64,000 nucleotides of DNA from a virus (IMGVR_UViG_3300042555_002918:32001-96000); one strand, 5' to 3'; numbered from the stretch's first letter, positions 9,092 through 62,109 are shown. Numbers and translations: made by a program. The notes: generated by a model not told the origin, from the letters alone.

Positions 9092-9301
9092 ATGAATATG
9101 ACTAACCGACTCACGTTGAAAGAAGCAGCCCAAAAGTCAATTCAAACCAGCGACCTGGTAATGTTTTCCAAGGTAGTCGACCAGCTACGGTCTATGGGCT
9201 TTAACTACGAAGACACCCAAGCCTTCTTTTTTAAGACGACAGGGATCGATGCCAATACCTTTGAAGACCTGTGCTATGAGTCGGACAGGCAATCTCTCTA
9301 G
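9092..9301 (+). CDS. Hypothetical protein
   Basis: GGAGG SD; 69 aa. Confidence 0.6.
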   Translation: MNMTNRLTLKEAAQKSIQTSDLVMFSKVVDQLRSMGFNYEDTQAFFFKTTGIDANTFEDLCYESDRQSL

Positions 9302-9741
9302 TTAGCCTTTAGGTGCTTCTTATATCCTTTCCAGAAAAGCTTTCCCTTCTCGCTTTGGTCACTTGATGGTTTAATCGCTAGCCCCTTCTCTCGGGCATGG
9401 TCATACATTGCCGTGGCGACCCCTCTTCGCTGCCACCCATAGTCAGTATGAAGCTTATGTGCCCGGAAACCCTTTCCCCTAGGGTCCTTGTGAAATATTG
9501 CAAATCCTATCCCATGCTGAGGCCCCATTCCCGCTGGGTGCTCCTTAGCATGTTTTACAATCTCACTCCTGGCATAGCTTGTGTCGTCGGTTGAGGCGTC
9601 GGGATGGTAGGCTACTACCATATGGGCTTTTCTGCCTCGGTCAGATGGGTGGTCAATCTCCTGCATGTGGAGAACGGTACCGCTTGGGAGCTTCTCAGGC
9701 AGCCCAAGGCGCTCAACTATGAATTGTAAGAAGGTCTTCAT
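9298..9741 (-). CDS. GNAT acetyltransferase with T4-like capsid-targeting leader
   Basis: MKTFLQFIVE start; acetyl-CoA motif WQRRGVATAMY; QSEKGKLFW; GATAAATA at 9751-9758. Confidence 0.8.
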   Translation of the reverse strand: MKTFLQFIVERLGLPEKLPSGTVLHMQEIDHPSDRGRKAHMVVAYHPDASTDDTSYARSEIVKHAKEHPAGMGPQHGIGFAIFHKDPRGKGFRAHKLHTDYGWQRRGVATAMYDHAREKGLAIKPSSDQSEKGKLFWKGYKKHLKAN

Positions 9742-9783
9742 GACGGGAGGTATTTATCTCCCGTCGAAGACGACCCATTTTAG

Positions 9784-10224
9784 CTACTTGATCCGCTTGC
9801 ATTTCGACCCACACGCCTTTCGGAGCTTTTTCTCCAAGGTAATACGGGCCTTGTTGTCCGCAGTTGCTGCGTTAAGGTTAGCAGTTGCTGCGTTATAGTT
9901 ACCGGTTAAAGCTTGGTGATCTGCCAGGAGGGAGTTATGAGCCCCCATACAGGCATTAAGGTCTTGGTAATCTGCGTAAAGGATGGCTTCGACGGCTGGA
10001 CCATAGAAAACGCTCATCTCGGTTCGGCCATATTGGTTGTGAGTAAACCAGTTGTAATAGTTGTCCGATGCGACAAAGCACCTCGGAACGTAACCAAAAG
10101 TCTGCCCAAATAAATTCCTTTCCGAATCCGTGATGTAGCACCCAGGAGGGATGCCCTCCGACTGAGCTACGGGAGCCCCTATGACGCAGAAAAGGATTGT
10201 GGCAAGAGTAGTGAGCTTTTTCAT
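9784..10224 (-). CDS. Signal-peptide-bearing protein with coiled coil
   Basis: MKKLTTLATILFCVIGAPVAQS signal-like N-terminus; basic Cys-containing C-terminus; AAGGGGG SD. Confidence 0.7.
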   Translation of the reverse strand: MKKLTTLATILFCVIGAPVAQSEGIPPGCYITDSERNLFGQTFGYVPRCFVASDNYYNWFTHNQYGRTEMSVFYGPAVEAILYADYQDLNACMGAHNSLLADHQALTGNYNAATANLNAATADNKARITLEKKLRKACGSKCKRIK

Positions 10225-10330
10225 ATTTCCCCCTTAAATGAGCCGGTAGACCTATGGTAGGGCACCCCAACATTTGAAATCAACGGCGTTTGCGCATATT
10301 GTTTGAAGGCTGATCGCTAAGTCATTGAAA

Positions 10331-10365
10331 GGTAATGTTTGACGATCAAACTTTTTCGTTAGAGT
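10331..10365 (+). promoter_or_regulatory. GGTAATGT-N21-TAGAGT promoter
   Basis: Same motif and spacing as the other copies. Confidence 0.55.
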
Positions 10366-10437
10366 CACTTCGAAACGTATACAATTCCAGGTTTCCCTTA
10401 TTGATAGTTTGAAGGCGGACTGCGTATACTTGACGTT

Positions 10438-11184
10438 ATGACGACACAATGGTTTTTTGCTGACGGAAGAAGCTACGAGGGACAGGCCCCGACGGGTGAC
10501 GCTGCGACGGCTACCATCTCGTACATCGATACATGCCCCCGCTGTAATGGAAGCGGTAGATACCCGTCTATCGCATGGGAGGGGAAATGTTTGAAATGCA
10601 ATACAGCAGGCCGCGTCAAGATTACCGCTAGGATTTTCACCAGCGAAGCACTTTCGCGTTTGCAAGCCTCTAAGCAAAAGCGCCAAGCCGCTAAAGAGGC
10701 AAAGCGTCAGGCAGAGAGAGCCGCAAAGGTAGCTGCACTGGAGGAGACTAAAGCGCAATTCACAGCTCAGAACCCAGGGCTTATTGAGAACTTACGCTCT
10801 CACACGGACTCCTTTGCCACTTCGCTTGTTGAGCAGTTTGACCGAAAAGGTACCCTGACTGCAGCCCAGATAGCTGCGGGACAGCGTAAGATTGATCAGA
10901 TTGCAAATGAGCTTCCAAGCGCTCACCTCGGGACAGTCGGGGAACGCCGAGAGTTTACCCTCACGGTGACTTTTACCAAGCTGTCTGAGGGCCGCTTTTG
11001 TAGTACCTTTATTGCCTTTAAGGACAGCGCAGGAAACCGCGTGACATGGAAGGCTTCCGGCTGCTCAGCCCTCCAGGCGGGTGATGTTGTAACCGGCCTC
11101 GCTACCGTCAAGGAGCACTATGAGTACCAAGGTAAGAAACAGACCGCTATCACACGGGCTCAGTTTAGCCTGAAACGGGAGTAG
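10438..11184 (+). CDS. DnaJ-type zinc finger plus C-terminal OB-fold-like protein
   Basis: CPRCNGSG and CLKCNTAG; HLGTVGER...ATVKEH.EY.G.KQT.ITR; TATACT 7 nt before ATG. Confidence 0.75.
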   Translation: MTTQWFFADGRSYEGQAPTGDAATATISYIDTCPRCNGSGRYPSIAWEGKCLKCNTAGRVKITARIFTSEALSRLQASKQKRQAAKEAKRQAERAAKVAALEETKAQFTAQNPGLIENLRSHTDSFATSLVEQFDRKGTLTAAQIAAGQRKIDQIANELPSAHLGTVGERREFTLTVTFTKLSEGRFCSTFIAFKDSAGNRVTWKASGCSALQAGDVVTGLATVKEHYEYQGKKQTAITRAQFSLKRE

Positions 11185-11209
11185 GCGAGAAATCCGCCGA
11201 GCGCCCTTT

Positions 11210-11467
11210 TTACTCTTCGTCGTCTAGCTTTATGGTATGCACCCCGCGTACTTCTAATATGTCGCGCAAGGTTGTTTCATTTTCGTGCAGGTAATCGCAA
11301 AGCTTTTCAAGAAGCTCTTTCTGCCCCGCCAGGAACGCCTTGTAGAACTCGCCTGTCTTAGATGTGTCCTCGGTAAGCTTGTCGTCTAGCCTAGTCGATG
11401 TCTCATCGACCCAAAACCAAAGGTTTTCGGCGCTTGTGTACTTGTGCTCTTTCCAGTGTCTACTCAT
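11210..11467 (-). CDS. Hypothetical protein
   Basis: 85 aa ORF coupled to the upstream gene. Confidence 0.55.
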   Translation of the reverse strand: MSRHWKEHKYTSAENLWFWVDETSTRLDDKLTEDTSKTGEFYKAFLAGQKELLEKLCDYLHENETTLRDILEVRGVHTIKLDDEE

Positions 11468-11472
11468 GACAA

Positions 11473-11991
11473 TCAGTCCTCATCCTTTGGGTCATACCCC
11501 CACTCGTGAATGGAGTCCCCGTTCGTGAAAACGTGCTTCGCTGGAACTCTCATACTGGCGACTTTGTAATCTCCGTTTAGAGCGCCTTCCCCATGGTCGT
11601 GTGCGTACTCTTTCGAAATAGTGACCCAATCTCCCTTTTGAATCATGTGATGGAGGGGAGACTTGCCGCTCTTCTTAGCTTCCTTGAAAGCGTTTTTATA
11701 GACGTCTGTCGGGATAGCCCGGTGAATCCACACCTTGTCGTCTGGCTTATGTCTCATAGTAGTCACTTTAAAATGAGACTTTGAGTCATACCCATTTCCG
11801 TAATCTGAATAGTACCTAAAGCCTTTATGGGAGTAGAAATCATCCGGGTATGTGCCCTTAGCCGTAACATCGTGCAGGGGTGAGCCATCGGTAGAGTCAG
11901 GTGCGGTATGCTCCCCTCGGTACTCCTTTTCGTTAAGGAATGACCGGATCGCCTCGGCGATAATGTCAGTTTCGGTTCTCTTCTTAGCCAC
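11473..11991 (-). CDS. Leader-bearing protein with putative ART-like domain
   Basis: MAKKRTETDIIAEAIRSFLNE leader; VWIHRAIP...GDWVTISKEYA..HG...EWGY; TATAAATA at 11999-12006. Confidence 0.7.
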   Translation of the reverse strand: MAKKRTETDIIAEAIRSFLNEKEYRGEHTAPDSTDGSPLHDVTAKGTYPDDFYSHKGFRYYSDYGNGYDSKSHFKVTTMRHKPDDKVWIHRAIPTDVYKNAFKEAKKSGKSPLHHMIQKGDWVTISKEYAHDHGEGALNGDYKVASMRVPAKHVFTNGDSIHEWGYDPKDED

Positions 11992-12022
11992 AGAGGGCTA
12001 TTTATAGAGAGCCGATTCTCAT

Positions 12023-12220
12023 CTATTCCTGAACAGCCGGAGGACTAGGTAACTCCATCCAGAAATCGACCCATGAGAGCTCAGACCCAAGGGCTGAGTA
12101 CTTAAAAGCTCCCCCCACAAAGCACACGATCTGAAAGTTCTCCCCAAAGGCTACAAGGTAAGTGCCCCCTTCGGTGGGGTGCGTAGCCCGGTCATCTTTA
12201 TCGAATTTGTTCCAGTTCAT
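12023..12220 (-). CDS. DUF551-like protein
   Basis: MNW...P...YLV...V..WMELPSPP pattern. Confidence 0.65.
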   Translation of the reverse strand: MNWNKFDKDDRATHPTEGGTYLVAFGENFQIVCFVGGAFKYSALGSELSWVDFWMELPSPPAVQE

Positions 12221-12261
12221 ACACCCTCACATGGCCTTGGGAATAAGGTCCTATGTGAGTG

Positions 12262-12296
12262 AGTGTACCTGAGATAGTGACCCGTCGAGCATTACC
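12262..12296 (-). promoter_or_regulatory. GGTAATGC-N21-TACACT promoter
   Basis: Motif with fixed spacing. Confidence 0.65.
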
Positions 12297-12528
12297 CCTT
12301 TGCTAACTGACGCAAGGCTTCACTCTTTGAAAACTCATTAAAACTGTCCCAGTCCTCTCTCAAATAAGTGAGAACGTGGCTTAGGACCTTGGCGTCCTCT
12401 GCTCCGACCACTAGGGAGTGACCTTTGAGTGCCCCACCCTTAGCCACAATCGATTTAATTGATTCGGTGATGTCAGTCAGTACATCATGAACAGTCTCTG
12501 CCGATGGTACGCCAGTCTTCATCTCCAA
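12292..12528 (-). CDS. Hypothetical protein
   Basis: 78 aa; GAGGA SD; GGGAATGT-N21-TACTCT upstream (12557-12591). Confidence 0.55.
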   Translation of the reverse strand: MEMKTGVPSAETVHDVLTDITESIKSIVAKGGALKGHSLVVGAEDAKVLSHVLTYLREDWDSFNEFSKSEALRQLAKG

Positions 12529-12603
12529 TCCTCATAAAGGTAAATCGCCCGAGGGTAGAGTATGAAATGTGAACAATCGGGGAACATTCCCCTATCGAGT
12601 AAA

Positions 12604-13212
12604 TTATTTGGGGAAATATATCCCGATGCCTTCAGCGATGATGTCCTGTTCCGACACGCTGTCTATGGTGAGGCTCTCGTTAACATTGCCCGAGCGAGCG
12701 TTTATCTTATTTAAAAGATTCTTAGCTGCGCCTAAAAGCTTTGGATGAGCTTTATCAAGAATTTGCAACGTCTCCCCTTTCTCTTTGAAATACGTCTTAG
12801 AGAACTTAGGGTCGTGCTTTGCAATAGAATGACTGTTCGAGATAAGGTCCGCAGCTTTCACTGTATGAGCGATGTGACTCCCAGACTTTATCTTGTCATT
12901 ATAGGCGGCTTTCCGCGTTGCCCTATTTCCATCTACCCCAGGCTTACCCCTGTCCGTTAAGGTTTCAACATCGTCCGCAACTCGCTTCCCGAAATGATGA
13001 TGAATCTCATCATAGGTCGTAGGGGTGTCTTCTAAGGTATCATGGAGCCATGCTACGGCCTTGGCGTGCTCAGTTTCCTGTGGAGTATCCGCCATGGACA
13101 TTGCAGCAACGTCCCGTAGGTGATGCCAGTAGGGTTCCCCGGTGTACTTTCTCTTTTGTTCCCCGTGACGCTCGATAGCAAACTGACGGGCTCTTTTTAC
13201 CAAGTCTGACAT
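12604..13212 (-). CDS. HD-domain hydrolase, RelA/SpoT hydrolase (small alarmone hydrolase)-like
   Basis: H..QKRKYTGEPYWHH, AWLHDTLEDT, FGKRVA..V..LTD, VKAADLISN; CATAAATA at 13238-13245. Confidence 0.85.
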   Translation of the reverse strand: MSDLVKRARQFAIERHGEQKRKYTGEPYWHHLRDVAAMSMADTPQETEHAKAVAWLHDTLEDTPTTYDEIHHHFGKRVADDVETLTDRGKPGVDGNRATRKAAYNDKIKSGSHIAHTVKAADLISNSHSIAKHDPKFSKTYFKEKGETLQILDKAHPKLLGAAKNLLNKINARSGNVNESLTIDSVSEQDIIAEGIGIYFPK

Positions 13213-13255
13213 ACACTCTAATCTACTTAGACGAGTGTATTTATGAGGAAGATTT

Positions 13256-13711
13256 CTAATCTTCCCGAGCGGGTACGTGCCTCTTTACAAAGAAGCTATG
13301 CCCTACGTCCTTGGACCCCTCTTCGTCTTTTTCAATATCCGGAACGTGGCTTTTGTGAATCCTCACCACTGCTACCGGTGGAGGGTCATCGTGAGAGTGA
13401 AACAGGTGGTCTTCGACCTTATCGGCCCAGGCCTTCGCCGAGGAGCGACTAGAGAGAAATGCTCTTCCCTTGGAATGAGCCGGATACGCCCCAGCAGTAA
13501 ACATGGACTTTGTGCCAGTTCCGCCCGGCTTTAGCCCATGTTGCACTATGGCCTTTGCCGCCGGTTCACTTGTTGCGTGATACAGGTAGTCATCCTCGTC
13601 ATCGCGGTACTTAAGCGAGTCGTATGGGACAAGCTCAAAGCGGGATTTGGGAGAGGTAGCCTCTGTAAACGTCGATATGGCTTCCGCTAATAGGTCATGG
13701 TCTTTTCCCAT
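13256..13711 (-). CDS. Leader-bearing ADP-ribosyltransferase-fold protein
   Basis: MGKDHDLLAEAISTFTE leader; YLYHATS...AI..HGLKP and AFLS motifs; CATAAATA at 13718-13725. Confidence 0.65.
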   Translation of the reverse strand: MGKDHDLLAEAISTFTEATSPKSRFELVPYDSLKYRDDEDDYLYHATSEPAAKAIVQHGLKPGGTGTKSMFTAGAYPAHSKGRAFLSSRSSAKAWADKVEDHLFHSHDDPPPVAVVRIHKSHVPDIEKDEEGSKDVGHSFFVKRHVPARED

Positions 13712-13783
13712 GAGCCATATTTATGACCGGCGGAAAGAGTACTGGGTCGGCTGAGTACTAAGGTTTTACAAGACGGAGTAACG

Positions 13784-13875
13784 AAAAAGCCAGCCGCCCT
13801 CCCCTCTGACACCGTTCTGCTTCGAGGTGGAGTGCGTGGCAGGAAACGGTAAAAACACCCCCTAGCGGCTGACTG
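13784..13875 (-). ncRNA. Candidate late small hairpin RNA
   Basis: GATAAATA at 13880-13887; AGTCAGCCGC pairs with GCGGCTGGCT followed by TTTT; inner stem ACCGTT/AACGGT. Confidence 0.45.
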
Positions 13876-14013
13876 CAGGTATTTATCACCTACGAAATAC
13901 TGGGAATGTGAGGGGAAAGGTCAACTTTTGTAGAAAAGTAGTGTCTAAGCTGTTAAGCTATGTTTGAAGGCGGACGATAGGCTCTATGTAAGCAGTTTAT
14001 AGCGAGGTTCACT

Positions 14014-14283
14014 ATGGCAAAGCAAGTTTACGCACGAGCGACACAGACTGGGAAGCTCTTCCTTGAGCTTGCAACCGTACACTCAAACGAAACGAGCTTT
14101 AAAGAGACCGCTACCTACCTAGGCGACTATGGCTACGTGATTAACCTTAAACGCGGCATGGACAAGATTCAAACCATCCGCTGCAAGCGCCTTAAGGCCT
14201 TCATCTCAGAGGTCGAAGGGGCCGCAAAGGAGCGCTTTGGGTCTCACTATCGGATTCGCGAATTTGTCCTTATTGGCCACTAA
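14014..14283 (+). CDS. Hypothetical early protein
   Basis: TTAAG-N15-GACGATA and TGTTTGAAGGCGGAC upstream; GAGG SD. Confidence 0.65.
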   Translation: MAKQVYARATQTGKLFLELATVHSNETSFKETATYLGDYGYVINLKRGMDKIQTIRCKRLKAFISEVEGAAKERFGSHYRIREFVLIGH

Positions 14284-14319
14284 CCCCCTTTCTCACGTCT
14301 AGCTTTTAAGAGGTACACC

Positions 14320-14856
14320 ATGGCAACGAACACTCCTTGGGGCAAATCACAAAATTCAACTCAGTTCGCTCGTGGGCTCACCTTCCATACGACCGCCGGG
14401 CACGGTGGGTTCTTGGTTAGTAAGGGCTACGCTGAAAAGCACCTTACCCCAAGTGCCCTTAAACGAGCCGAGGTCTGGGGCGGCTACTATGCCTTCGAGG
14501 AAGATTGCGCCGCTGCAATCGTCGAATTTGAACTCCCCTACACTCGTGTCCTCTACACGAACTTCCAGGAGGTCACCGACGAAAAGGTCTTTAAGACCCT
14601 CTCGCGCTGGTACCCCGACTATCTCATCGAGCGTGGGTTCTCCCCGGAAGCCTCCCTCTACGCTCAGTGGCTTGTCTCTAAAGAAGACCAGAGGCTTAGG
14701 GCTGAGCGCTCCCCGGATCTGATTGTCTGTGCCGAAGGCGTTGATTCCAACACTGTCCGGGTCACAACGGCAGACCGCAAGGAGCACCTGGTTACCTATG
14801 AATCATACCAGCGCCGCGAAGGCCTAAACCTTCTTTCAAAGTGTGTATTAGCCTAA
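14320..14856 (+). CDS. DUF7007-like protein
   Basis: TPWG.......A.GL....TAGHGGF and FEEDC motifs. Confidence 0.7.
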   Translation: MATNTPWGKSQNSTQFARGLTFHTTAGHGGFLVSKGYAEKHLTPSALKRAEVWGGYYAFEEDCAAAIVEFELPYTRVLYTNFQEVTDEKVFKTLSRWYPDYLIERGFSPEASLYAQWLVSKEDQRLRAERSPDLIVCAEGVDSNTVRVTTADRKEHLVTYESYQRREGLNLLSKCVLA

Positions 14857-14862
14857 AGGGAG

Positions 14863-15156
14863 ATGAATATGAGTAAGTACATAAACGTTCACGTTAATAG
14901 CACCCTCTTCCTTGACGCTAAGCACGCTGGGCGAATCGACCACGTGAAATACCGGGAACTGGATAGGACCCCGAGTGCAGGGAAGGCTTTTCAGTTTAGG
15001 AGCAAAGTGGCTGCTCTCAACTTCATAAATGCCCTTGTCGCCTTTGCCACTGACTACCCTTCGACGGTCACCGACCCCGCCTGTAACGGGCATAGGTGGA
15101 TATACGACTTAGGGAATACCCATGGGTTTAAGATCGACTTTCCGACTCACCGGTAA
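14863..15156 (+). CDS. Hypothetical protein
   Basis: GGGAG SD, in operon. Confidence 0.6.
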   Translation: MNMSKYINVHVNSTLFLDAKHAGRIDHVKYRELDRTPSAGKAFQFRSKVAALNFINALVAFATDYPSTVTDPACNGHRWIYDLGNTHGFKIDFPTHR

Positions 15157-15247
15157 AGAAAGTTGAAAAATTCCAAGATTCCCCTATTCAGCTATGTTTG
15201 AAGGCTGACGATACTTATTCTTACAAGGGCAAAGGATAAGGAGCACT

Positions 15248-15742
15248 ATGTACCAGTACAAAATCCGAGGTATCAGCGACGACCAGACAGAGTGCGATTG
15301 CTGTGGGCGCAAGGGCCTTAAGCGCACGGTCGCTCTTGAAGTGTTCAAAGATGGGGAGTCGCTCCTGGAAGTTACTCGCGTAGGGGTCGACTGCGCAAGT
15401 GTGCTTTTGTCCAGGTCAGGAAAGCCCAAGTCGGCCCGTGCCATTAAGGCTGAAGCGGAGGCCTTAAAGTCCCACGAGGAGCGCCAAAAGGAGATGCTTG
15501 AGCAGGGCTACCAATGGAAGCTCCAGAACAGGATCTCGTCCGATAAGGGCCAGGCGAACCTCTCCTACCATCGCCAATGGAAGACTCCCGATTACCGTAA
15601 CGCCGACACGGGCGTACTGCTTACGGACGGTGTGTCCTATGCACGAATCCCAAGTGACTCGACTCCAGTTCAACCGGAGAGCCCTGAAGGGAGATTCATA
15701 CGGGAGCTTTCAGCTAGGGGCTTTGCTCCGGTAGAGGGATAA
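15248..15742 (+). CDS. Putative zinc-binding protein
   Basis: CDCCGRKGLKRTV...GVDCA; AAGGAG SD; TTCAG-N15-GACGATA upstream. Confidence 0.7.
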   Translation: MYQYKIRGISDDQTECDCCGRKGLKRTVALEVFKDGESLLEVTRVGVDCASVLLSRSGKPKSARAIKAEAEALKSHEERQKEMLEQGYQWKLQNRISSDKGQANLSYHRQWKTPDYRNADTGVLLTDGVSYARIPSDSTPVQPESPEGRFIRELSARGFAPVEG

Positions 15743-15760
15743 CAACAAAAGGAGATATGT

Positions 15761-16006
15761 ATGACAGTTGAACGACTTGTGCTCTCGCTCGATATCCCAG
15801 TGCGCCTTCAGATAGTAGCCTGGGTCACTATCACTGAGGCTCAAGCGTACATTAAAGCATGTAAGACTGAAGCCCCAGAGCTCCCAACGGAAAGGGCAGC
15901 ATACGACTTTTTAAAGATCATAAGCGCCCTCTCCATGCCAAGTGAGGATTACCGAAAGGTGAAAGACTTTCTATTTGCCGATAGTGAATTACTCGCCGAT
16001 GCGTGA
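15761..16006 (+). CDS. Hypothetical protein
   Basis: AAGGAG SD. Confidence 0.6.
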   Translation: MTVERLVLSLDIPVRLQIVAWVTITEAQAYIKACKTEAPELPTERAAYDFLKIISALSMPSEDYRKVKDFLFADSELLADA

Positions 16007-16011
16007 CGGGG

Positions 16012-17472: not shown

Positions 17473-17658
17473 AGAGGTCTATTTATAAAGCCCTCTTTGC
17501 CCTGAGCGACCTTTGCAATTTGACGTTTAGCAAATGTACCCACTGTCCCCCTTTGGGTGCATTTGCTCAGTGTGTACGACTAGCGAGAGCGCTCTTTCCC
17601 TACGGAGATCTGTGATTTACGGAATGTAGAAAAGGTCAAATTGGAGGGATCACTAAAG

Positions 17659-17693
17659 GGTAATGCTCTAGCCTTGCCCAGTTTTCGTATCGT
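17659..17693 (+). promoter_or_regulatory. GGTAATGC-N21-TATCGT promoter
   Basis: 8 nt before the methylase ATG. Confidence 0.7.
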
Positions 17694-17701
17694 TTATCGA
17701 T

Positions 17702-18697: not shown

Positions 18698-18795
18698 TAA
18701 CTCATTGGACAGCGGGGCGAGCCCATCGAGCACTGGTCGCGGAATGTAGAAAAGGTCAAGTTTGTCGAAGGATTAGGGACTTTCGTATCTACCCT

Positions 18796-19116
18796 TTAAG
18801 GCTTGATTGCTTGTGCGTGGGGCAATACTCGATTTTGATGGCGGGTGATTTTAGCCGCACCTATTCGGTGGTGAAACCTGATAGCGGCCAATGCCTCGTC
18901 TTCTGTGTCGTAACTCCCTTTATGAACACTAATGTCATCATCTGTCACGGAAGAGTGAAATTTGCCGTTTAACTGAGTGTATGAACCAAGAAGTTTCCCT
19001 TTAGTCTCAACATCCACTGAGCTACCCCTATGAACAAGGTCCATAGGAGTCTTTTGCTCAATGAGATGAGCATCAATCTCTTCCGTGATAATGTCTTGTT
19101 CGGTCTTCTTGCTCAT
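18796..19116 (-). CDS. Leader-bearing small protein
   Basis: MSKKTEQDIITEEIDAHLIE; TATAAATA at 19125-19132. Confidence 0.75.
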   Translation of the reverse strand: MSKKTEQDIITEEIDAHLIEQKTPMDLVHRGSSVDVETKGKLLGSYTQLNGKFHSSVTDDDISVHKGSYDTEDEALAAIRFHHRIGAAKITRHQNRVLPHAQAIKP

Positions 19117-19200
19117 AGAGAGTCTATTTATAGAGAGTGAGAAGGAGCGGTGTTAAGCAGTTACATGGGCTTATGCCCCTAGAAAGTGCTTCGGGGTGAG

Positions 19201-19227
19201 GGTATAATTATGGTATAATTATGGTAT
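19201..19227 (+). repeat. 11-bp tandem repeat containing TATAAT
   Basis: GGTATAATTAT x2 plus GGTAT immediately before the brnT-like ATG. Confidence 0.7.
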
Positions 19228-19402
19228 GGCGTTTGAGTTCGACCCCGCTGCTGTCATTTATGGCGAGGAGAGATTCCTCCCTATTGGTAAGGTCGGACCG
19301 TTTTACTGGACAGATGTTATCACTTACCGTTTCGGTAAGGTGAGATTTATATCGGTTAGGAGATCACGTGACACAGAGAAAAAGCTCCACCAAAGCACTT
19401 AA
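19226..19402 (+). pseudogene. brnT: BrnT-family toxin with in-frame internal deletion (58 aa)
   Basis: Hand translation: MAFEFDP-AAVIYGEERFLPIGKVGPFYWTDVITYRFGKVRFISVRRSRDTEKKLHQST; lacks the K...N..KHG..F segment. Confidence 0.7.
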
Positions 19403-19634: not shown

Positions 19635-19644
19635 GCCTTGTAAA

Positions 19645-20238: not shown

Positions 20239-20241
20239 ACC

Positions 20242-26849: not shown

Positions 26850-28202
26850 CTATTCGGGGTTGACTTGTCTTTTCGTCATTGCGGAAAGCGCAGCCTTACG
26901 GACATATGTTTTTTTATCAGCAAGCGCTTTAGTAATGTGCTCGTGTGTAGCATTTGGATGTGAAACGGCTTTAGCCCTTACATAATCGTCTTCATCAGCA
27001 AGCGCTTTAGTAATGTGCTCGTGTGTAGCATTTGGATGTGAAACGGCTTTAGCCCTTACATAGTAATCTTCATCAGCAAGCGCTTTAGTAATGTGCTCGT
27101 GTGTAGCATTTGGATGTGAAACGGCGCTCCCCCTGATTGGCGCACTTCCATCCGCAAGCGCTTTAGTAATGTGCTCGTATGTAGCATTTGGGTGGGAAAT
27201 TGCGGCATCTCTTACCGGCGGCTGTGCATCAGCAAGCGCTTTAGTAATGTGCTCGTGTGTAGCATTTGGATGACGAATTGCATTGACCCTTACGAGGGGA
27301 TTTCCATCAGCAAGCGCTTTAGTAATGTGCTCGTGTGTAGCATTTGGGTGGGAAATTGCGGCAACTCTAACATCTATCGAATGATGACCAAGGGCAGCAC
27401 CAATTTCATGGGACCTAACGTGAGCAACTGTACGCCCCGAGCCATCATCGTAAATATTTTCATTCTTATGATAAGCCCCCATCGGCTGATGATGATTATG
27501 ATGGGTATCGAGAATGTGCTTGACCTGATCTTCGAATCCTTTTGGTGCATCACCATATATACTTGGCTCAGGGACCAAGATAGAGTTTTGGTTCTCATCA
27601 CTGTGTTTTTTTATAGCAATCCGAGCAAGTGGCTTTTGAGGATGCCCCTGGTCATCAGCATGAACAAGATAGGCAACGTGCGTGCCGTGCTTTAGGTCTT
27701 GTTGAAGATTATGCCTGTTTTTACCACTCTCAAAGTTCATACACGAGCTGTTTTCCCAAGAGTGTCCACAGCTCGTCATTCCTGCGACATCATGTGGGTG
27801 TCTGGAAATGAGGACTCTGAGGTTTTGTTTGTTTTTCTGAGCACGAACAGGATCCTCAGCGAACTTCTTTACAAGGTTTGGCTCAGCCTTAGTCTGACCG
27901 AGAGCCTTACCAATCCGCACGTCTCGTCCGTGCTTATCCTTTGCTAAACCTGCCTTGTAGTCGTGAACCTTATATCCGTGCTTTGAAAGGTGTCCTTCTA
28001 TCGCTTCCTTCGCCGGGGAATCCGCATGGGCGGTTGAGTCAAAGTCAAAGTATCGCCGTTGGTGGGTTTCTTTATCCGTATCGGGGCCGCCAAAAAGCTT
28101 GTCACTAAACTCATTATTTCCCTTCCTCCAGGCATTTACGTCGGCCTTTTGGTCATTCCTAAGGGCTTCTTGGAGCATTTTGAATTGCTTAAAGGTCAGC
28201 AT
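26850..28202 (-). CDS. HEAT-like repeat protein with capsid-targeting-like leader
   Basis: MLTFKQFKMLQE; SCM motif; six 26-aa HPNATHEHITKALAD repeats; TATAAATA at 28211-28218. Confidence 0.85.
   Translation of the reverse strand: MLTFKQFKMLQEALRNDQKADVNAWRKGNNEFSDKLFGGPDTDKETHQRRYFDFDSTAHADSPAKEAIEGHLSKHGYKVHDYKAGLAKDKHGRDVRIGKALGQTKAEPNLVKKFAEDPVRAQKNKQNLRVLISRHPHDVAGMTSCGHSWENSSCMNFESGKNRHNLQQDLKHGTHVAYLVHADDQGHPQKPLARIAIKKHSDENQNSILVPEPSIYGDAPKGFEDQVKHILDTHHNHHQPMGAYHKNENIYDDGSGRTVAHVRSHEIGAALGHHSIDVRVAAISHPNATHEHITKALADGNPLVRVNAIRHPNATHEHITKALADAQPPVRDAAISHPNATYEHITKALADGSAPIRGSAVSHPNATHEHITKALADEDYYVRAKAVSHPNATHEHITKALADEDDYVRAKAVSHPNATHEHITKALADKKTYVRKAALSAMTKRQVNPE
26921..27360 (-). 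repeat. 78-bp coding tandem repeat, 6 copies
   Basis: CAAGCGCTTTAGTAATGTGCTCGT at 26921, 26999, 27077, 27155, 27233, 27311. Confidence 0.9.
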
Positions 28203-28234
28203 AGACTGACTATTTATAGCTCATCATGGGAATA

Positions 28235-47158: not shown

Positions 47159-48199
47159 CTATCCTTCCCATGCCTGAGGGTCGATCTTTTGTCGGTTGGC
47201 CTTATACTCCGCCGCCAAATGTTCCATTCGGTCCTTTATTTGGTCAGGGCTACTCAGCTTTTGAATCTCTTTGATGTGGTCGATCAACCAGCTTATAGAA
47301 ACCTCAGACTCAGGAAAGGTGACAACTGTCGATAAAGAAGCGACTCGGCGCGACTTTTGGTAAACCCCGTTAATTCCCCAACCTGCTGTTCGCATAAACA
47401 CGTTTCGATAAAGGGTCAGCTTCATACCATCGGCATGAGGCAGAGGAATAAAAAGCCAATCATCTCTAAACTCAGCATGAAGCTCCTTTTGGAATGAGAG
47501 GATGGCGTCCTTCTTTGCAAACTTTGACGGCTTACCGTCTTTCTTTTTCCCAAGCTTTTTAGCCGGGAACAATGCCTCGGGATTAGTGAGTACGCTGAAA
47601 TCATGCTCAAACCTATAATTCTGCTGTGCAAGCTTAATCTTCCGCCGGTTATGGAGAATGGAAGTTGCGACATACATGTTTATGCCGAAGGCTCCATGGG
47701 AAAGTCCGTGGTTGTGTCTTTCTACTGCGCTCACGTTGATGCGCAAGTCAAGGACAGTGCTGCGCGTATGATTCGCAAACTCAGCACTTAAAGAGGCATA
47801 GGTGTCCTCAACGTTTTCCTTTATTTGAACTGAAAACTCTTGGCCGAAGATAGCTTTGAAGTGATTGGTAAATGCGTGGATGTTCAGCACCTGCTTAACC
47901 TTTCCAAGAGCGGACACAAGGAAAATTCGGTCCTGCTCTCGGCTCCTGTGATACTGAGCCATTCTATCCTCAGGGCTTACGTGAGTTCCGCCCAAAATGT
48001 TGCTCAACTTGTCGTAGGCAACATTGATCTTCTTCATGATGGAGACGTCACCGCCCTTGTCTGGGTGATGAAGGATAGCCATCTTTTTATATGCGGCTTT
48101 GAGCTCGTCTGCCGTATAGCTCCCAGTAAGGCCCAGAAGATGCTGAGCATCTTGTACAGTCATTTGGCTTTCGTTAAGGTACTCTTGAAAAGTCTTCAT
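47159..48199 (-). CDS. J-domain protein with T4-like capsid-targeting leader
   Basis: MKTFQEYLNE; LLGL...LKAAYKK.A..HHPDKGG...KKIN.AYDKL; TTAAG-N15-GACGATA upstream (48228-48254). Confidence 0.85.
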   Translation of the reverse strand: MKTFQEYLNESQMTVQDAQHLLGLTGSYTADELKAAYKKMAILHHPDKGGDVSIMKKINVAYDKLSNILGGTHVSPEDRMAQYHRSREQDRIFLVSALGKVKQVLNIHAFTNHFKAIFGQEFSVQIKENVEDTYASLSAEFANHTRSTVLDLRINVSAVERHNHGLSHGAFGINMYVATSILHNRRKIKLAQQNYRFEHDFSVLTNPEALFPAKKLGKKKDGKPSKFAKKDAILSFQKELHAEFRDDWLFIPLPHADGMKLTLYRNVFMRTAGWGINGVYQKSRRVASLSTVVTFPESEVSISWLIDHIKEIQKLSSPDQIKDRMEHLAAEYKANRQKIDPQAWEG

Positions 48200-58221: not shown

Positions 58222-59097
58222 ATGGCTGTAAAAACTGACATCTACGAAATCATTACTGAGCGTATTATTTCCCGCATTGAGAGTGAGGGTACGTTACCTT
58301 GGCAACAACCGTGGGGGAACTATCAAGGTGTCTCGGGCCAGCCTCAGAACTTTGTGACTAAAAAGCCATACCGGGGATGTAACGTCTGGATTCTTGCCGC
58401 TGCAAACTATCGCTCGCCCTATTGGTTAACTTTCAAACAGGCTCAATCTTTGGGAGGGACCGTCAAGAAAGGCGAAAAGGGCGTCCCAGTGATCTATTGG
58501 CAGTGGATAGAGAAAAAGGACAAAGAGGGAGAGAGAATCCCCCTCCTTCGATATTTTACAGTATTTAACGTAGAACAGTGCGAGGGATTCGAGGTTCCAC
58601 AGCTTGAGGAAGCTCCTGTTAACACCGACCAGGGCTTTGAGTCTGCAGAGAGAGTCATTGAGAACATGAAGAATCGACCGAAAATAAGATTTAACGGTCA
58701 TTCTGCCTACTACTCTCCTTCGGAAGACCTTGTCGTAATACCGAGTAAGTCCGACTTCACTTCGACAGCTGAGTTCTACAATACGACTTTCCATGAGCTT
58801 ATCCATTCGACCGGCCACTCTAGCCGATGTGCCAGGATGAAGACTCTTCAAGACTGGAATAGGTATGGCTCAGACCCATACGCTAAAGAAGAGCTCGTCG
58901 CGGAGATGGGGGCGAGCTTCCTCTGTGGAGTCGCTGGGATTGAGTCAAAGGTCGAGGATAACAGCGTAGCCTACCTTCAGGGGTGGATTAGCCGTCTTAA
59001 AGGGGACAAGAAGCTCCTTATACAGGCGGCAGCACAGGCCCAGAGAGCAGCGGACTACGTGCTTGGGACAACCGATAACAACGAACAGGAGGGATAA
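58222..59097 (+). CDS. ardC: ArdC-family ssDNA-binding antirestriction protein with zincin-like domain
   Basis: PW..PW; Y.G.N; W.TFKQA...GG.V.KGEKG; VFN.EQ; HELIHSTGH; YA.EELVAE.GA. Confidence 0.88.
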   Translation: MAVKTDIYEIITERIISRIESEGTLPWQQPWGNYQGVSGQPQNFVTKKPYRGCNVWILAAANYRSPYWLTFKQAQSLGGTVKKGEKGVPVIYWQWIEKKDKEGERIPLLRYFTVFNVEQCEGFEVPQLEEAPVNTDQGFESAERVIENMKNRPKIRFNGHSAYYSPSEDLVVIPSKSDFTSTAEFYNTTFHELIHSTGHSSRCARMKTLQDWNRYGSDPYAKEELVAEMGASFLCGVAGIESKVEDNSVAYLQGWISRLKGDKKLLIQAAAQAQRAADYVLGTTDNNEQEG

Positions 59098-59402: not shown

Positions 59403-59417
59403 CCTAACCCGCTCGAC

Positions 59418-60332
59418 CTATCGGTCCTTAAGGTCCATTAGAATCTGCTTAGGGTCCTCAGGCTCATTTGGCACAACGTGTGCGTGCCAAACGTGGATGG
59501 GCTCCATGTTTGAAAAATGGGAGCCTGGCGGAAGGATTGTCGGCGTTGGATGTACTTTCAGTGTCGTGTGCCTTGGAAGTAAGTACTCATGTTCGTTGCC
59601 GACCGCAGAGTGTTCTCCGACGTACAATCCTCTCTGTCCCTTTTTAAGATGAATATGAAGCACGTGGTTGGCGCGGGCATCACCCTCTTCCGAAAGAGGC
59701 TTGGAAAACACCACAGCCGTCTTTTTGTTGATAGACGTGGATGTATAGGCTGGGAGGTGAATTTTGTTCTCTGAATTTAGAGCGGCTTTCCGCCCAGGGT
59801 GAAACCCCACTCCTGAATAGACGTGGAGGTCGTGTTTAAGTCTGTGGTGTTTTACGGCCTCATCCAAGTGCGGGATGCTGTGCTCCGCTATATTATCCCC
59901 AGGGTGAGTCTTTGTGATATGGTGCTGTAGAAGAGCCCTATTAAGACGACTGCTTTCCTCGGTATACTTCTTAACTGCTTTTCGGTGCCCATCTGAAAAA
60001 TCATGATGCGGTTGTAGTCCAGCCAAGGTTTCATGGACATTGGAGTAGGTTTCTCCTATGTGCGAATTGTCGTTTTGGCTCCTCCATTCGGCGTACTTGA
60101 CTGCGCGGGCGGCCTGAGCACTCTCATCTACCTTTTTAAGAGGCTTTTTATTGGCTGAAGAGTGGCCGCCGTGGCTATCGACAACGGTGGGGGTGCCTTT
60201 ATAGGTGGGGGGCCTATCCTGAGCGTGACTTCCGTGCGTATCGACCACAACGGCAGTTCCCCTATAGCGGGTAACCGACTTTTGTCCGCCTAATCCGGCA
60301 ATAGACTTCAGATATTGAAGAAACGTTTTCAT
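59418..60332 (-). CDS. ADP-ribosyltransferase (Alt/Mod/VIP2-like) with capsid-targeting leader
   Basis: MKTFLQYL; YT..S..LN..L; HVYSG; YTSTS; EHEYLLPR; CTAAATA at 60358-60364. Confidence 0.85.
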   Translation of the reverse strand: MKTFLQYLKSIAGLGGQKSVTRYRGTAVVVDTHGSHAQDRPPTYKGTPTVVDSHGGHSSANKKPLKKVDESAQAARAVKYAEWRSQNDNSHIGETYSNVHETLAGLQPHHDFSDGHRKAVKKYTEESSRLNRALLQHHITKTHPGDNIAEHSIPHLDEAVKHHRLKHDLHVYSGVGFHPGRKAALNSENKIHLPAYTSTSINKKTAVVFSKPLSEEGDARANHVLHIHLKKGQRGLYVGEHSAVGNEHEYLLPRHTTLKVHPTPTILPPGSHFSNMEPIHVWHAHVVPNEPEDPKQILMDLKDR

Positions 60333-60369
60333 AGCGGGGTACCACAAACTCCCCCACTATTTAGGTGCG

Positions 60370-61338
60370 TTACTTAACCCCAACCGATGTCTTTTTCTTA
60401 GAAGCACCCGTGTCTTTTCGCTTTGGGACTTTGGCCTTGCTGGTTGAATCATTTAACTCGCTCGGTATGACATGGGCGTGCCAGATGTAGGTCTTGTAGT
60501 CATTACCGGCGTGCCCTCCTTCAGGAACGACTGAGGGTTTAGGGTGAACCTTGAGTGTTGTATGTCGAGGAAGGATGTACTCGTACTCATTTTGGTCATA
60601 ATTAGAGTGTTTTCCGACGTAGAGGCCCTTCTGTCCCTTTTTTAGATGGATGTGCAGAACGTGATTAACTGGTTCATGATTGTATTTGTCGGTCGTTCCT
60701 TCGATAGCGTGGGAAAAGACAGTAGCAGTCTTTTTGCAAATCGAAGTAGATGTATATGCGGGTAGGTGAAGATTGCCCTTATGACACATTTCACACTTTT
60801 CTCCTGGATGAAAGCCTACCCCAGAGTAGACATGAAGATCGTGCTTCAGTTTGTTGTGACCAATAGCCTGGTCTAATTTATGGATGTTGTGTTCATCCAC
60901 TTTTGGAGGGTCGTCATATCCGGCCTCGTAATGTTTGAGAAGGGTGCGATTAACATGACGACTATAGGTCGTGTACATTTCAACAGCGTCAGAATGATCG
61001 CGAATATTGCTTATTGGATATTTCTTATCCAAGTGAGTTTCAATTTCGTCATGATTATTTCCAAGGTGGTGATTGTCGTTATTTGACTCCCATTGGGCGA
61101 AATGTTTCCATTTCCTAGCCTTTTTAAATGACCACGCCTCATCGAGTTTCTGTTTTTTTGCCAGAGTCGATGAAAGTGACTGAGATGCCGAGACATCTGT
61201 CGCCTGCGCTATGCTCTTTTTTCTGAGAGCCTTATGTTTTGAATGGGACCCGTGGGTATCAACAACAACCGGGGTGCCCGTAAAGCGGGGCACACCTCTC
61301 AGGATTTTCTGAGAGATGAATTGAAGAAATGTTTTCAT
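60370..61338 (-). CDS. ADP-ribosyltransferase paralogue with capsid-targeting leader
   Basis: MKTFLQFI; HVYSG; YTSTS; EYEYILPR; CATAAATA at 61366-61373. Confidence 0.85.
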   Translation of the reverse strand: MKTFLQFISQKILRGVPRFTGTPVVVDTHGSHSKHKALRKKSIAQATDVSASQSLSSTLAKKQKLDEAWSFKKARKWKHFAQWESNNDNHHLGNNHDEIETHLDKKYPISNIRDHSDAVEMYTTYSRHVNRTLLKHYEAGYDDPPKVDEHNIHKLDQAIGHNKLKHDLHVYSGVGFHPGEKCEMCHKGNLHLPAYTSTSICKKTATVFSHAIEGTTDKYNHEPVNHVLHIHLKKGQKGLYVGKHSNYDQNEYEYILPRHTTLKVHPKPSVVPEGGHAGNDYKTYIWHAHVIPSELNDSTSKAKVPKRKDTGASKKKTSVGVK

Positions 61339-61368
61339 AATTAACTAGTAGGTTGATCCACTAGTTAT

Positions 61369-62109
61369 TTATGCATTTTTCAACCCATGATACCGGACAA
61401 GAAGCATTTTTTTTCTTGTGTTGAAATTCTGGTGCAATTTTTCCCAGTCCTTAAGTCCTGACTGACTAAATTCCGTCTTGACCTTTTCGTCATCAAGTTT
61501 CTTAACGGCATCAAGACCATCCCGCTCGGCGTGAGGATGCTGCGAAAACACGTGGTTGAATACTTGAGACGCTTGTTGGTTTTTATGGCGTAGTGAGTCA
61601 TGCTCATCAATGTCCGGACCAAATTCCTTGTGGTCACCCTGGGCTCGAAAGTGAAATGCGCCGCCAGTATCAATGGAATGTAGGTCTCCGGTTTTTGCGT
61701 TCTTTAGGATGTTATCATGCTCTGTTCCGACGATGTCCCAGTTCTTAGTTAGAACTGCAGCGTGGAACATTTTTCCGATCTGACTAGCTTGCGTTGGTGT
61801 CAGATGATGAAAATCTTCAGGTTTGATTTTGGCGAGGTTATCGTCGTACCTAGTAACGACGGCATGTTTTCCTCGAATGACGCGATACTCGGGCTTTACC
61901 GTATGGATGCCCATATGATGATAAATCCTTCCAGCAAGGGCCTCAACCTTGGCCTGGTCGGCATTTTTGTAAAATTTGACGTAATGACGATTACCGGAAC
62001 TGTCGGTGTGAATCCCGCCCTCATTTGAGCCGAGTTGAGTACCTGACACTGGGGTCAGTTCTTGAGAGGTAAACTGCTTAAATGTTTTGATGTTACTCTC
62101 GCTCATCAC
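61369..62109 (-). CDS. HipA/PI3-4-kinase-like protein kinase with CTS-like N-terminus
   Basis: KTFKQFTSQE; G.QLGSN.GG; YVK; E.LA..IY; NWD..G...DN; IDTGG. Confidence 0.7.
   Translation of the reverse strand: MMSESNIKTFKQFTSQELTPVSGTQLGSNEGGIHTDSSGNRHYVKFYKNADQAKVEALAGRIYHHMGIHTVKPEYRVIRGKHAVVTRYDDNLAKIKPEDFHHLTPTQASQIGKMFHAAVLTKNWDIVGTEHDNILKNAKTGDLHSIDTGGAFHFRAQGDHKEFGPDIDEHDSLRHKNQQASQVFNHVFSQHPHAERDGLDAVKKLDDEKVKTEFSQSGLKDWEKLHQNFNTRKKMLLVRYHGLKNA

What the first reader, a model, noticed from the sequence alone, without database searches (positions are those of the whole stretch)
9298..62109. Six proteins carry a T4-like capsid-targeting sequence in front of host-modifying cargo
Seen: MKTFLQFIVE (GNAT, 9298), MLTFKQFKMLQE (HEAT, 26850), MKTFQEYLNE (J-domain, 47159), MKTFLQYL and MKTFLQFI (two ARTs, 59418 and 60370) and KTFKQFTSQE (kinase, 61369). 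Known: the T4 IPII/IPIII leader is MKTYQEFIAE, and T4 Alt is a packaged ART. Inference: the virion delivers acetylating, ADP-ribosylating, phosphorylating and chaperone-hijacking activities before any phage transcription. Two distinct leader classes in one phage suggest two docking sites on the prohead core.
Basis: partly seen in the sequence, partly recalled or inferred. Interest (0 to 1): 0.8.

Follow-up and report, generated by a model that had tools for sequence, protein, structure and literature searches.

The report
T4-type capsid-loading tags on enzymes
A distant, uncultured relative of phage T4 puts the same short N-terminal tag that T4 uses to load proteins into its head on at least ten unrelated genes, including enzymes and chaperone adaptors. 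This phage therefore probably injects a protein toolkit with its DNA, and that toolkit can be read from sequence.

Summary
Observation confirmed and extended. The window is part of a complete 145-kb T4-superfamily phage that has portal, S77 prohead protease, scaffold and gp23-type capsid genes.

- **Motif:** [KL]-T-[FY]-x-[QE]-[FYW] occurs six times in the six-frame translation (0.41 expected). All six sit at the starts of long minus-strand ORFs. Four more such genes lie outside the window.
- **Match to T4:** the tag fits the T4 internal-protein leader at the residues that matter in T4 (4 and 7 for targeting, 8 and 10 for cleavage).
- **Conservation:** the same four positions are kept in about 100 metagenomic homologues of the kinase-like cargo, all six GNAT-like homologues and most ART homologues.
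- **Spread:** the strict tag heads at least 120 ORFs on IMG/VR contigs, mostly T4-like.
- **Expression:** four of the six genes (eight of ten genome-wide) have a TAAATA late-promoter box.
- **Cargo:** ART, J-domain and HEAT are solid. The kinase-like fold is well supported and the GNAT fold moderately.

Packaging, cleavage and injection are inferred, not shown. The "two docking sites" idea is unsupported, because MKTF and MLTF interchange between orthologues. This scan has already reported similar T4-like leaders in other large phages. Verdict: a new variant of a known system, of moderate to high interest.

The parts
9298..9741 (-). GNAT-like protein (147 aa). The leader is codons 1-10 (9712-9741), with I-V-E at residues 8-10.
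   Evidence: Translation. Pfam GNAT hits are weak, E 0.05. AF2 model pLDDT 87.5. All top fold matches are GNAT acyltransferases: VIA Z 6.2-7.9 over residues ~18-147 and Foldseek E 7e-3. All six homologues carry the leader.
9751..9756 (-). TAAATA late-promoter-like box, 15 nt upstream of the GNAT-like gene.
   Evidence: The same box precedes the sheath, tube, baseplate, portal and capsid genes.
26850..28202 (-). Protein of 450 aa. It has a 12-residue leader variant (28167-28202, ending L-Q-E), an unannotated ~250-aa N-domain and seven HEAT-like repeats.
   Evidence: HEAT E 1e-12. The N-domain has 2058 cluster representatives, many with similar leaders. The homologue in Ralstonia phage RsoM2USA begins with the same kind of leader. 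The gene sits directly after the neck and sheath-stabiliser genes.
28211..28216 (-). TAAATA box inside an exact TATAAATA, 14 nt upstream of the HEAT gene. A second box lies at 28236-28241.
47159..48199 (-). J-domain protein (346 aa). The leader is codons 1-10 (48170-48199, L-N-E at 8-10). The J-domain with its HPD follows, then a C-terminal domain of unknown fold.
   Evidence: Pfam DnaJ E 2.6e-8, above cut-off. phrog_13942 E 1e-47. Homologues occur in Straboviridae with a leader (Vibrio phage VmeM-32) and without one (KP27). The gene lies inside the late baseplate gene block.
59418..60332 (-). ADP-ribosyltransferase 1. The leader has F4, Y7 and L8 but no Glu at position 10. A candidate downstream site V-D-E lies near residue 70.
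   Evidence: PF03496 E 3e-16. STS and ExE motifs are kept, with Ser in place of the first-motif Arg. Orthologues keep the same E10-less leader.
60358..60363 (-). TAAATA box 31 nt upstream of ART1.
60370..61338 (-). ADP-ribosyltransferase 2. The leader has F4, F7 and I8 but no Glu at position 10. A candidate site L-D-E lies near residue 66.
   Evidence: PF03496 E 2e-14. Alignment to C3larvin. 87 homologues, almost all with the leader.
61366..61371 (-). TAAATA box 33 nt upstream of ART2.
61369..62106 (-). Protein-kinase-like protein (245 aa from the ATG). The leader is residues 6-16 (62059-62091), close to the T4 IPI leader and ending S-Q-E.
   Evidence: HipA_C is weak. AF2 pLDDT 91.4. Best fold match is H. 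pylori kinase CtkA, E 1e-7, TM 0.61. Catalytic-type Lys, HDN and D-x-GG columns are invariant. There are at least 177 homologues (best 120 examined) with conserved leader positions.

Best explanation
The six genes, and four more elsewhere in the genome, encode cargo proteins addressed to the phage head by a homologue of the T4 capsid targeting sequence.

Proposed sequence of events:
1. The genes are transcribed late, from T4-type TAAATA promoters or within late operons.
2. The 10-residue amphipathic leader has an aromatic residue at 4, an aromatic residue at 7, Ile/Leu at 8 and Glu at 10. It docks the protein on the scaffolding core while the prohead assembles.
3. The gp21-type prohead protease cuts after the Glu. 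That is residue 10 in the GNAT-like and J-domain proteins, residue 12 in the HEAT protein, and possibly residue 16 in the kinase-like protein. The mature protein is then free inside the head.
4. The two ARTs keep the targeting half of the tag but lack Glu10. They are either packaged uncut or cut at V-D-E / L-D-E sites about 65-70 residues in.
5. The cargo leaves the head with the DNA and acts in the newly infected cell. The activities would be ADP-ribosylation, phosphorylation, acyl transfer, and recruitment of host Hsp70 through J-domains with HEAT-repeat adaptors.

Shown here: the motif, its non-random placement, selection at the protein level, the presence of the T4 head machinery, promoter boxes and cargo folds. 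Inferred from T4: docking, cleavage, ejection and host effects.
For: 1. The motif occurs 6 times against 0.41 expected, and always at ORF starts. There are 10 such genes genome-wide.
2. T4 leaders were read from NC_000866. IPII and IPIII carry MKTYQEFIAE, and IPI starts MKTFKEFTS. The literature gives the CTS sequence (10.1101/2021.01.19.427310) and reports that residues 4 and 7 target while 8 and 10 govern processing (PMC9026906).
3. The phage has Peptidase_S77 at E 3e-35 and scaffold, portal and gp23 homologues. The T4 gp23 cleavage site L-T-E|A aligns with I-T-E|D at residue 63 here.
4. Among 99 kinase-like homologues, F4 occurs in 79, F/Y7 in 80, L/I/F/V8 in 78 and E10 in 77, while positions 2, 3, 5, 6 and 9 vary. 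All six GNAT-like homologues carry the leader. Among 84 ART homologues, F/Y4 occurs in 72, F/Y7 in 70 and E10 in only 40.
5. Conservation is at the protein level and confined to the leader. Codon positions 1+2 are 72% identical and position 3 is 42%. The flanking 24 nt on each side are about 25% identical.
6. TAAATA lies within 60 nt upstream of 8 of the 10 leader genes, and also upstream of the sheath, tube, baseplate, portal and capsid genes. Overall 52 of 216 ORFs have it.
7. The strict back-translated tag hits at least 120 IMG/VR loci, always at ORF starts and on unrelated cargo. 87 of the 120 loci carry T4-type core genes. Cargo families there include cytidylyltransferase-like, SAM lyase, GNAT, ART and zeta-toxin kinase.
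8. A 126-kb contig keeps an ART plus kinase cassette in which both genes are tagged.
9. The leader is predicted helical and lies outside the cargo fold.
Against: - No virion proteomics exists and the phage is uncultured.
- The strict tag is absent from the nearest cultured relatives by capsid protein (HTVC008M, Syn9, S-PM2, Melnitz) and from KVP40, DLP6, VmeM-32 and KP27. Conservation across the superfamily is therefore patchy, or the tag drifts.
- Both ARTs lack Glu10.
- The kinase-like leader is not at the extreme N-terminus, and its P3 residue is Ser rather than Ile/Leu.
- The J-domain and kinase-like genes have no TAAATA box of their own.
- Both ARTs have Ser in place of the NAD-binding Arg, so ADP-ribosylation is not assured.
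- Some tagged cargo elsewhere, such as peptidoglycan hydrolases and nucleotidyltransferases, is not obviously suited to delivery from the head.
Confidence: 0.75

Rival explanations
1. The tag does load the proteins into the prohead, but some or all of them work there as assembly or core components, for example J-domain proteins recruiting host DnaK for head assembly. They would be degraded or retained rather than injected as host-modifying effectors.
For: In T4 the core also holds non-injected proteins (gp67, gp68, gp22) that gp21 cuts into fragments (PMC9026906). Two tagged small proteins lie next to the scaffold gene. The J-domain gene sits inside the baseplate block.
Against: ART, kinase-like and GNAT-like enzymes have no known role in head assembly. 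T4 Ip1-3 and Alt are injected (PMC12373910, PMC9026906). The cargo has few internal [LIV]-x-E clusters of the kind seen in the scaffold.
Confidence: 0.12
2. The shared N-terminus is a recognition tag for some other process, not for capsid loading. Candidates are a modifying enzyme, a chaperone, or a late translational control element.
For: A Lys codon at position 2 is common in well-translated genes.
Against: The tag matches an experimentally defined T4 signal at its functional residues (PMC9026906). Third codon positions vary freely and the flanking RNA is not conserved, which argues against an RNA element. The tag co-occurs with T4-type head genes in 87 of 120 loci.
Confidence: 0.08
3. The similarity is a by-product of gene duplication or chance and has no function.
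For: The two ARTs are paralogues (47% identity).
Against: The other cargo proteins are unrelated. The motif count is about 15 times expectation and confined to ORF starts. Leader positions are conserved across hundreds of homologues whose neighbouring residues vary.
Confidence: 0.02

Closest known systems
[quoted passage not shown]
   Same: The tag is N-terminal and 10 residues long, with the same pattern at residues 4, 7, 8 and 10. It ends in the gp21 cleavage motif. The genes are late and dispersed, and the cargo proteins are unrelated to each other. The phage has the same protease, scaffold and capsid genes.
   Different: - The phage is very distant from T4 (capsid protein 32% identical).
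- There are ten tagged genes instead of three.
- The cargo is mostly enzymes or adaptor domains of 110-450 aa, whereas the T4 internal proteins are ~8-20 kDa basic proteins (PMC9026906) known as restriction inhibitors (PMC12373910).
- Some tags lack the cleavage Glu, and one is displaced from the N-terminus.
T4 Alt, the head-packaged ADP-ribosyltransferase
   Same: An ART of the same broad family (phrog_802 hits) that is carried in the head and processed by gp21 (PMC9026906).
   Different: Alt has a different short propeptide, M-E-L-I-T-E, not the internal-protein tag, and is about 680 aa. The ARTs here are about 300 aa, carry the internal-protein-type tag without Glu10, and have Ser instead of the first-motif Arg.
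Long N-terminal propeptides of ejection proteins in giant phages SPN3US and phiKZ (PMC5694885)
   Same: N-terminal propeptides are thought to target proteins to the prohead and are removed by a gp21-related protease after Glu.
   Different: Those propeptides exceed 100 residues and have no shared 10-residue motif.

Membership tests
T4-type capsid targeting sequence (CTS) | N-terminal leader of about 10 residues with aromatic residues at positions 4 and 7 (the targeting determinants in T4) | tested here: met
   All six window genes and four others have it. T4 leaders were read. In the kinase-like gene the motif starts at residue 6.
T4-type capsid targeting sequence (CTS) | gp21 cleavage motif, Ile/Leu at position 8 and Glu at position 10 | tested here: inconclusive
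   Met in the GNAT-like (I-V-E) and J-domain (L-N-E) genes and in the four genes outside the window. Shifted by two residues in the HEAT gene (L-Q-E). Atypical in the kinase-like gene (S-Q-E). Absent in both ARTs.
T4-type capsid targeting sequence (CTS) | The phage encodes the gp21-type prohead protease and a gp22-type scaffolding core | tested here: met
   PF03420 E 2.9e-35, above cut-off. phrog_207 protease, phrog_237 scaffold, phrog_213 portal and phrog_138 capsid protein.
T4-type capsid targeting sequence (CTS) | Protease specificity for [L/I]-x-E is conserved in this phage | tested here: met
   The T4 gp23 maturation site aligns with I-T-E at residue 63 of the capsid protein. This is indirect, because cleavage itself was not observed.
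T4-type capsid targeting sequence (CTS) | Late expression, together with the head genes | tested here: inconclusive
   TAAATA boxes lie upstream of 4 of the 6 window genes (8 of 10 genome-wide) and of the structural genes. The other two lie in late gene blocks. This is promoter prediction only.
T4-type capsid targeting sequence (CTS) | Physical presence in the virion, removal of the leader, and ejection into the host | not testable with these tools
R-S-E ADP-ribosyltransferases (PF03496) | Pfam score above cut-off, with the STS and ExE motifs | tested here: met
   59.7 and 53.6 bits against a cut-off of 23.4. The motifs are visible.
R-S-E ADP-ribosyltransferases (PF03496) | Arg of the first motif (NAD binding) | tested here: not met
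   Ser aligns with the Arg of C3larvin. The Y-S-G-V motif is shared by the paralogues, by two distant homologues, and by at least 41 of 87 family members.
J-domain (PF00226) | Pfam score above cut-off and the HPD tripeptide | tested here: met
   34.3 bits against a cut-off of 27.8. HPD is visible.
GNAT acyltransferases | GNAT fold and the acetyl-CoA motif A (Q/R-x-x-G-x-A/G) | tested here: inconclusive
   Pfam scores are below cut-off. The top 50 structural matches are nearly all GNAT-fold (acyl-CoA N-acyltransferase superfamily) proteins, but Z is only 6.2-7.9 and Foldseek E is 7e-3. A motif-A-like Q-R-R-G-V-A is invariant in homologues.
Protein-kinase-like fold (CtkA / HipA / actin-fragmin kinase group) | Kinase-like fold with a conserved ATP-binding Lys, catalytic-loop Asp/Asn and metal-binding Asp | tested here: met
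   Model pLDDT 91. CtkA matches at E 1e-7 and TM 0.61, followed by many kinases. K44, N132 and D146 are invariant and D131 is at least 90% conserved in 57 sequences. Pfam HipA_C alone is below cut-off.
HEAT repeats (PF02985) | Pfam score above cut-off | tested here: met
   47.5 bits against a cut-off of 23.5, with seven near-identical repeats visible.

The most novel reading that the evidence does not exclude
The T4 capsid targeting sequence is an old address tag used widely in the T4 superfamily. If so, a phage's injected protein arsenal could be read directly from its genome. This 145-kb phage would load ten or more effectors into its head: two atypical ARTs, a CtkA-like kinase, a GNAT-like enzyme, two J-domain proteins and a HEAT adaptor. 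With the second, gp67-like leader family the total may be about twenty. That would give immediate, transcription-independent takeover of host chaperones and signalling.
Probability: 0.45. Interest if true: 0.75.

Novelty: new variant of a known kind. Interest (0 to 1): 0.6.

Why it matters
In T4 the known natural cargo of this tag is three small proteins that block restriction enzymes. Here the same tag heads enzymes and chaperone adaptors in a phage whose capsid protein is only 32% identical to that of T4. It also heads hundreds of unrelated proteins on uncultured T4-like contigs. If the tag works as it does in T4, three things follow.

- It is a sequence-only handle for cataloguing proteins that phages inject with their DNA.
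- It points to kinds of first-minute host manipulation not known for T4's tagged internal proteins: phosphorylation, acylation and J-domain hijack of Hsp70.
- It widens the set of natural tags usable for protein delivery by engineered T4 heads.

Tried and rejected
- **No DNA relatives:** megablast of the 6.4-kb giant gene against phages found nothing.
- **No close ART2 relatives in IMG/VR:** The search for related loci with ART2 confirmed none.
- **Protein atlas:** the search for the HEAT N-domain failed because the machine was busy.
- **PDB sequence searches:** nothing useful for the kinase-like protein, the HEAT N-domain or the J-protein C-domain.
- **Eleventh candidate dropped:** the gene at genome 5230-5691, which starts M-K-T-F-H-Q-G, is the conserved gp4-type head-closure protein (phrog_218). 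It lacks positions 7, 8 and 10 of the tag.
- **MKTF versus MLTF as two classes:** rejected, because orthologues of the GNAT-like protein swap K2 and L2.
- **Repeated DNA cassette or RNA element:** rejected on codon-position statistics.
- **Signal peptide:** rejected. The leader is 10 residues, charged, and has no hydrophobic core.


Full report
**1. What the window is**

The window is bases 32001-96000 of a complete 145,388-bp IMG/VR virus record with direct terminal repeats. The record is a T4-superfamily phage.
- It encodes a Peptidase_S77 (gp21-type) prohead protease, E 2.9e-35.
- It encodes a gp22-type scaffold, a gp20-type portal and a gp23-type major capsid protein.
- It encodes T4-type baseplate, hub, neck and sheath genes.
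- Its capsid protein is 44% identical to those of Pelagibacter phage HTVC008M and Methylophilales phage Melnitz, and 32% identical to T4 gp23.

No close DNA relative is in the phage collection. A relative of about 155 kb exists in an ENA metagenome.

**2. The observation**

- **Count:** [KL]T[FY]x[QE][FYW] occurs six times in the six-frame translation of the window. Shuffles give a mean of 0.41 and a maximum of 3 in 200.
- **Placement:** all six matches lie within the first 12 residues of long minus-strand ORFs. That zone holds 0.65% of six-frame positions.
- **Elsewhere in the genome:** four more genes start the same way:
  - a second, 114-aa J-domain protein;
  - a 290-aa protein with weak HEPN and nucleotidyltransferase hits;
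  - a 120-aa protein next to the scaffold gene;
  - a 58-aa protein next to the scaffold gene, whose mature part is strongly basic (12 K/R against 5 D/E), as T4 internal proteins are (PMC9026906).
- **Excluded:** an eleventh candidate is the gp4-type head-closure protein.

**3. Is it the T4 signal?**

The T4 leaders were read from NC_000866.
- IPII and IPIII begin MKTYQEFIAE.
- IPI begins MKTFKEFTS and is cut further on, after I-T-E.
- Alt has a different propeptide.
- The uncharacterised T4 gp61.1 also begins with a perfect tag.

The literature gives the same CTS sequence (10.1101/2021.01.19.427310). It reports that residues 4 and 7 carry targeting, and that residues 8 and 10 carry processing. 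An Asp at position 10 blocks cleavage but not packaging (PMC9026906).

The leaders here have F or Y at 4, an aromatic residue at 7, and I or L at 8 (the kinase-like leader has Thr there and the HEAT leader Lys). Most have E at 10.
- The HEAT leader has a two-residue insertion before L-Q-E.
- The kinase-like leader matches IPI in 8 of 9 residues but starts at residue 6.
- The two ART leaders lack Glu10.

The protease's preference appears conserved. The T4 gp23 maturation site aligns exactly with I-T-E at residue 63 of this phage's capsid protein. The scaffold is full of [LIV]-x-E sites.

**4. Comparative evidence**

This is the strongest line of evidence. The table gives leader conservation in three cargo families.

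| Cargo family | Homologues examined | Pos. 4 | Pos. 7 | Pos. 8 | Pos. 10 |
|---|---|---|---|---|---|
| Kinase-like | 99 (short N-terminus) of the 120 listed; at least 177 found | F in 79 | F/Y in 80 | L/I/F/V in 78 | E in 77 |
| GNAT-like | 6 | leader present in 5; the sixth (P0137, 107 aa) begins downstream of it | | | |
| ART | 84 of 87 | F/Y in 72 | F/Y in 70 | I/L/V in 57 | E in only 40 |

- In the kinase-like family, positions 2, 3, 5, 6 and 9 vary freely. Many of these homologues sit on contigs of 110-180 kb.
- One GNAT-like orthologue has Leu2 instead of Lys2.
- The weaker E10 in the ART family fits the two E10-less ARTs here.

Within this genome, leader codons are 72% identical at positions 1+2 and 42% at position 3. 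The 24 nt on either side are at background, about 25%. Selection therefore acts on the peptide, not on a DNA or RNA element.

- Every hit sat at an ORF start.
- The downstream sequences were highly diverse.
- 87 of the 120 loci carried homologues of this phage's T4-type core genes.

Pfam families among 91 such ORFs were cytidylyltransferase-like (11), SAM lyase (5), DUF6321 (5), GNAT (3), ART (2), glucosaminidase (2) and zeta toxin (1). A 126-kb contig keeps an adjacent ART plus kinase pair, both tagged.

The strict tag is absent from HTVC008M, Syn9, S-PM2, Melnitz, KVP40, DLP6, VmeM-32 and KP27. Its distribution is therefore patchy, or the tag drifts. The VmeM-32 J-domain homologue begins with a looser version and the KP27 homologue has none.

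**5. Expression**

TAAATA, the core of the T4 late promoter, lies within 60 nt upstream of the sheath, tube, baseplate, hub, portal and capsid genes. It also lies upstream of 8 of the 10 leader genes, against 52 of 216 ORFs overall. The J-domain and kinase-like genes lack a box of their own. They sit in same-strand blocks behind genes that have one.

**6. Cargo**

| Cargo | Evidence |
|---|---|
| ARTs | PF03496 well above cut-off. STS and ExE present. The first-motif Arg is Ser, across the family |
| J-domain | Above cut-off, with HPD |
| HEAT repeats | Above cut-off |
| HEAT protein's N-domain (~250 aa) | No Pfam family. 2058 cluster representatives. Occurs in jumbo phages. The RsoM2USA copy begins with the same kind of leader |
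| Kinase-like | Model pLDDT 91. Best match H. pylori CtkA (E 1e-7, TM 0.61). Catalytic-type residues invariant |
| GNAT-like | Model pLDDT 87.5. Every top match is a GNAT, but scores are only middling. A motif-A-like Q-R-R-G-V-A is invariant |

**7. Mechanism and its limits**

The best reading has four steps:
1. Late synthesis.
2. Docking on the scaffolding core through the leader.
3. Cleavage after Glu by the S77 protease.
4. Retention in the head and ejection with the DNA.

Confidence in this reading is 0.75. The sequence-level parts of steps 1 to 3 are supported here. Physical packaging, cleavage, ejection and host effects rest on T4 precedent. Ip1-3 and Alt are injected, and Ip1-3 block type IV restriction enzymes (PMC12373910, PMC9026906).

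The main rival is that some cargo, notably the J-domain proteins, acts in head assembly rather than in the next host.

**8. The 'two leader classes' claim**

MKTF and MLTF are one class. A different family, M-S-K-K-T-E-Q-E-L-I-A-E-A-I, heads about ten late genes at window 6955-23279.
- It carries similar cargo: a J-domain plus HEAT protein and a HEAT protein.
- It resembles the N-terminus of the T4 core protein gp67, M-E-G-L-I-E-A-I.
- It occurs on only one other IMG/VR contig.

Whether it uses a second docking site cannot be judged here.

**9. Novelty**

The CTS, and the practice of finding ip genes by their signal, are established for T-even phages (PMC9026906, PMC12373910). Three things are new:
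- the evolutionary distance from T4;
- the number of tagged genes;
- the enzyme and adaptor cargo, together with the width of the tag's distribution in uncultured T4-like phages.

Earlier reports of this scan describe similar T4-like leaders in other large phages (e1-4335524, e1-4642399, e1-4543595, e1-5321603). The phenomenon has therefore been seen before within this scan, on other DNA.

Noticed in passing
window 6955-23279 (minus strand), e.g. 20525-21232, 21245-22033, 18796-19116, 22950-23279: A second leader family (M-S-K-K-T-E-Q-E-L-I-A-E-A-I) heads about ten late genes. Most have TAAATA 12-14 nt upstream. Cargo includes a J-domain plus HEAT protein (6955-7707) and a HEAT protein (19645-20238). 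The leader resembles the N-terminus of the T4 prohead core protein gp67. Only one other IMG/VR contig has it.
   Followed up: partly
L138:467-631 (T4 NC_000866 18966-19130, gene 61.1): The uncharacterised 54-aa T4 protein gp61.1 starts with a perfect CTS-like decapeptide (M-K-T-F-K-E-F-I-K-E). It may be an unrecognised fourth internal protein of T4.
   Followed up: no
window 59418-61338 (both ARTs) and homologues P0140-P0226: Between the leader and the catalytic domain, the ARTs carry one or two copies of a His-rich motif (G-T-P-V-V-V-D-T-H-G-S-H). Distant homologues keep a shorter P-x-H-G-x-H form. Its function is unknown. The whole ART family has Y-S-G-V in place of the canonical Arg-containing first motif.
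   Followed up: partly
window 27393-28166 (N-domain of the HEAT protein): A ~250-aa domain without a Pfam family has 2058 cluster representatives at E <= 1e-3. It usually sits at the N-terminus of 400-2000-aa proteins, several of those checked having HEAT/LRV repeats. It is present in jumbo phages (RsoM2USA, Atu_ph07, Erwinia and Dickeya phages).
   Followed up: partly
genome 24747-25619 (L003:4747-5619, +): A tagged 290-aa protein has weak hits to HEPN_AbiU2 and a Pol-beta-type nucleotidyltransferase. This suggests a packaged MNT-HEPN-like protein.
   Followed up: no
window 58222-59097 (+): A gene matching the PHROG 'anti-restriction protein' family (phrog_7245, E 9e-81) sits next to the ART and kinase cassette on the opposite strand.
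   Followed up: no
IMG/VR loci L009-L128: Tagged ORFs on other T4-like contigs include cytidylyltransferase-like proteins (11 of 91), SAM lyases (5), DUF6321 (5), zeta-toxin-like kinase and peptidoglycan hydrolases. Some contigs carry 3-4 tagged genes in a row (L031, L068).
   Followed up: partly
genome 23548-23892, window 6955-7707 and 47159-48199: The phage encodes three separate J-domain proteins, all behind a leader of one class or the other.
   Followed up: partly
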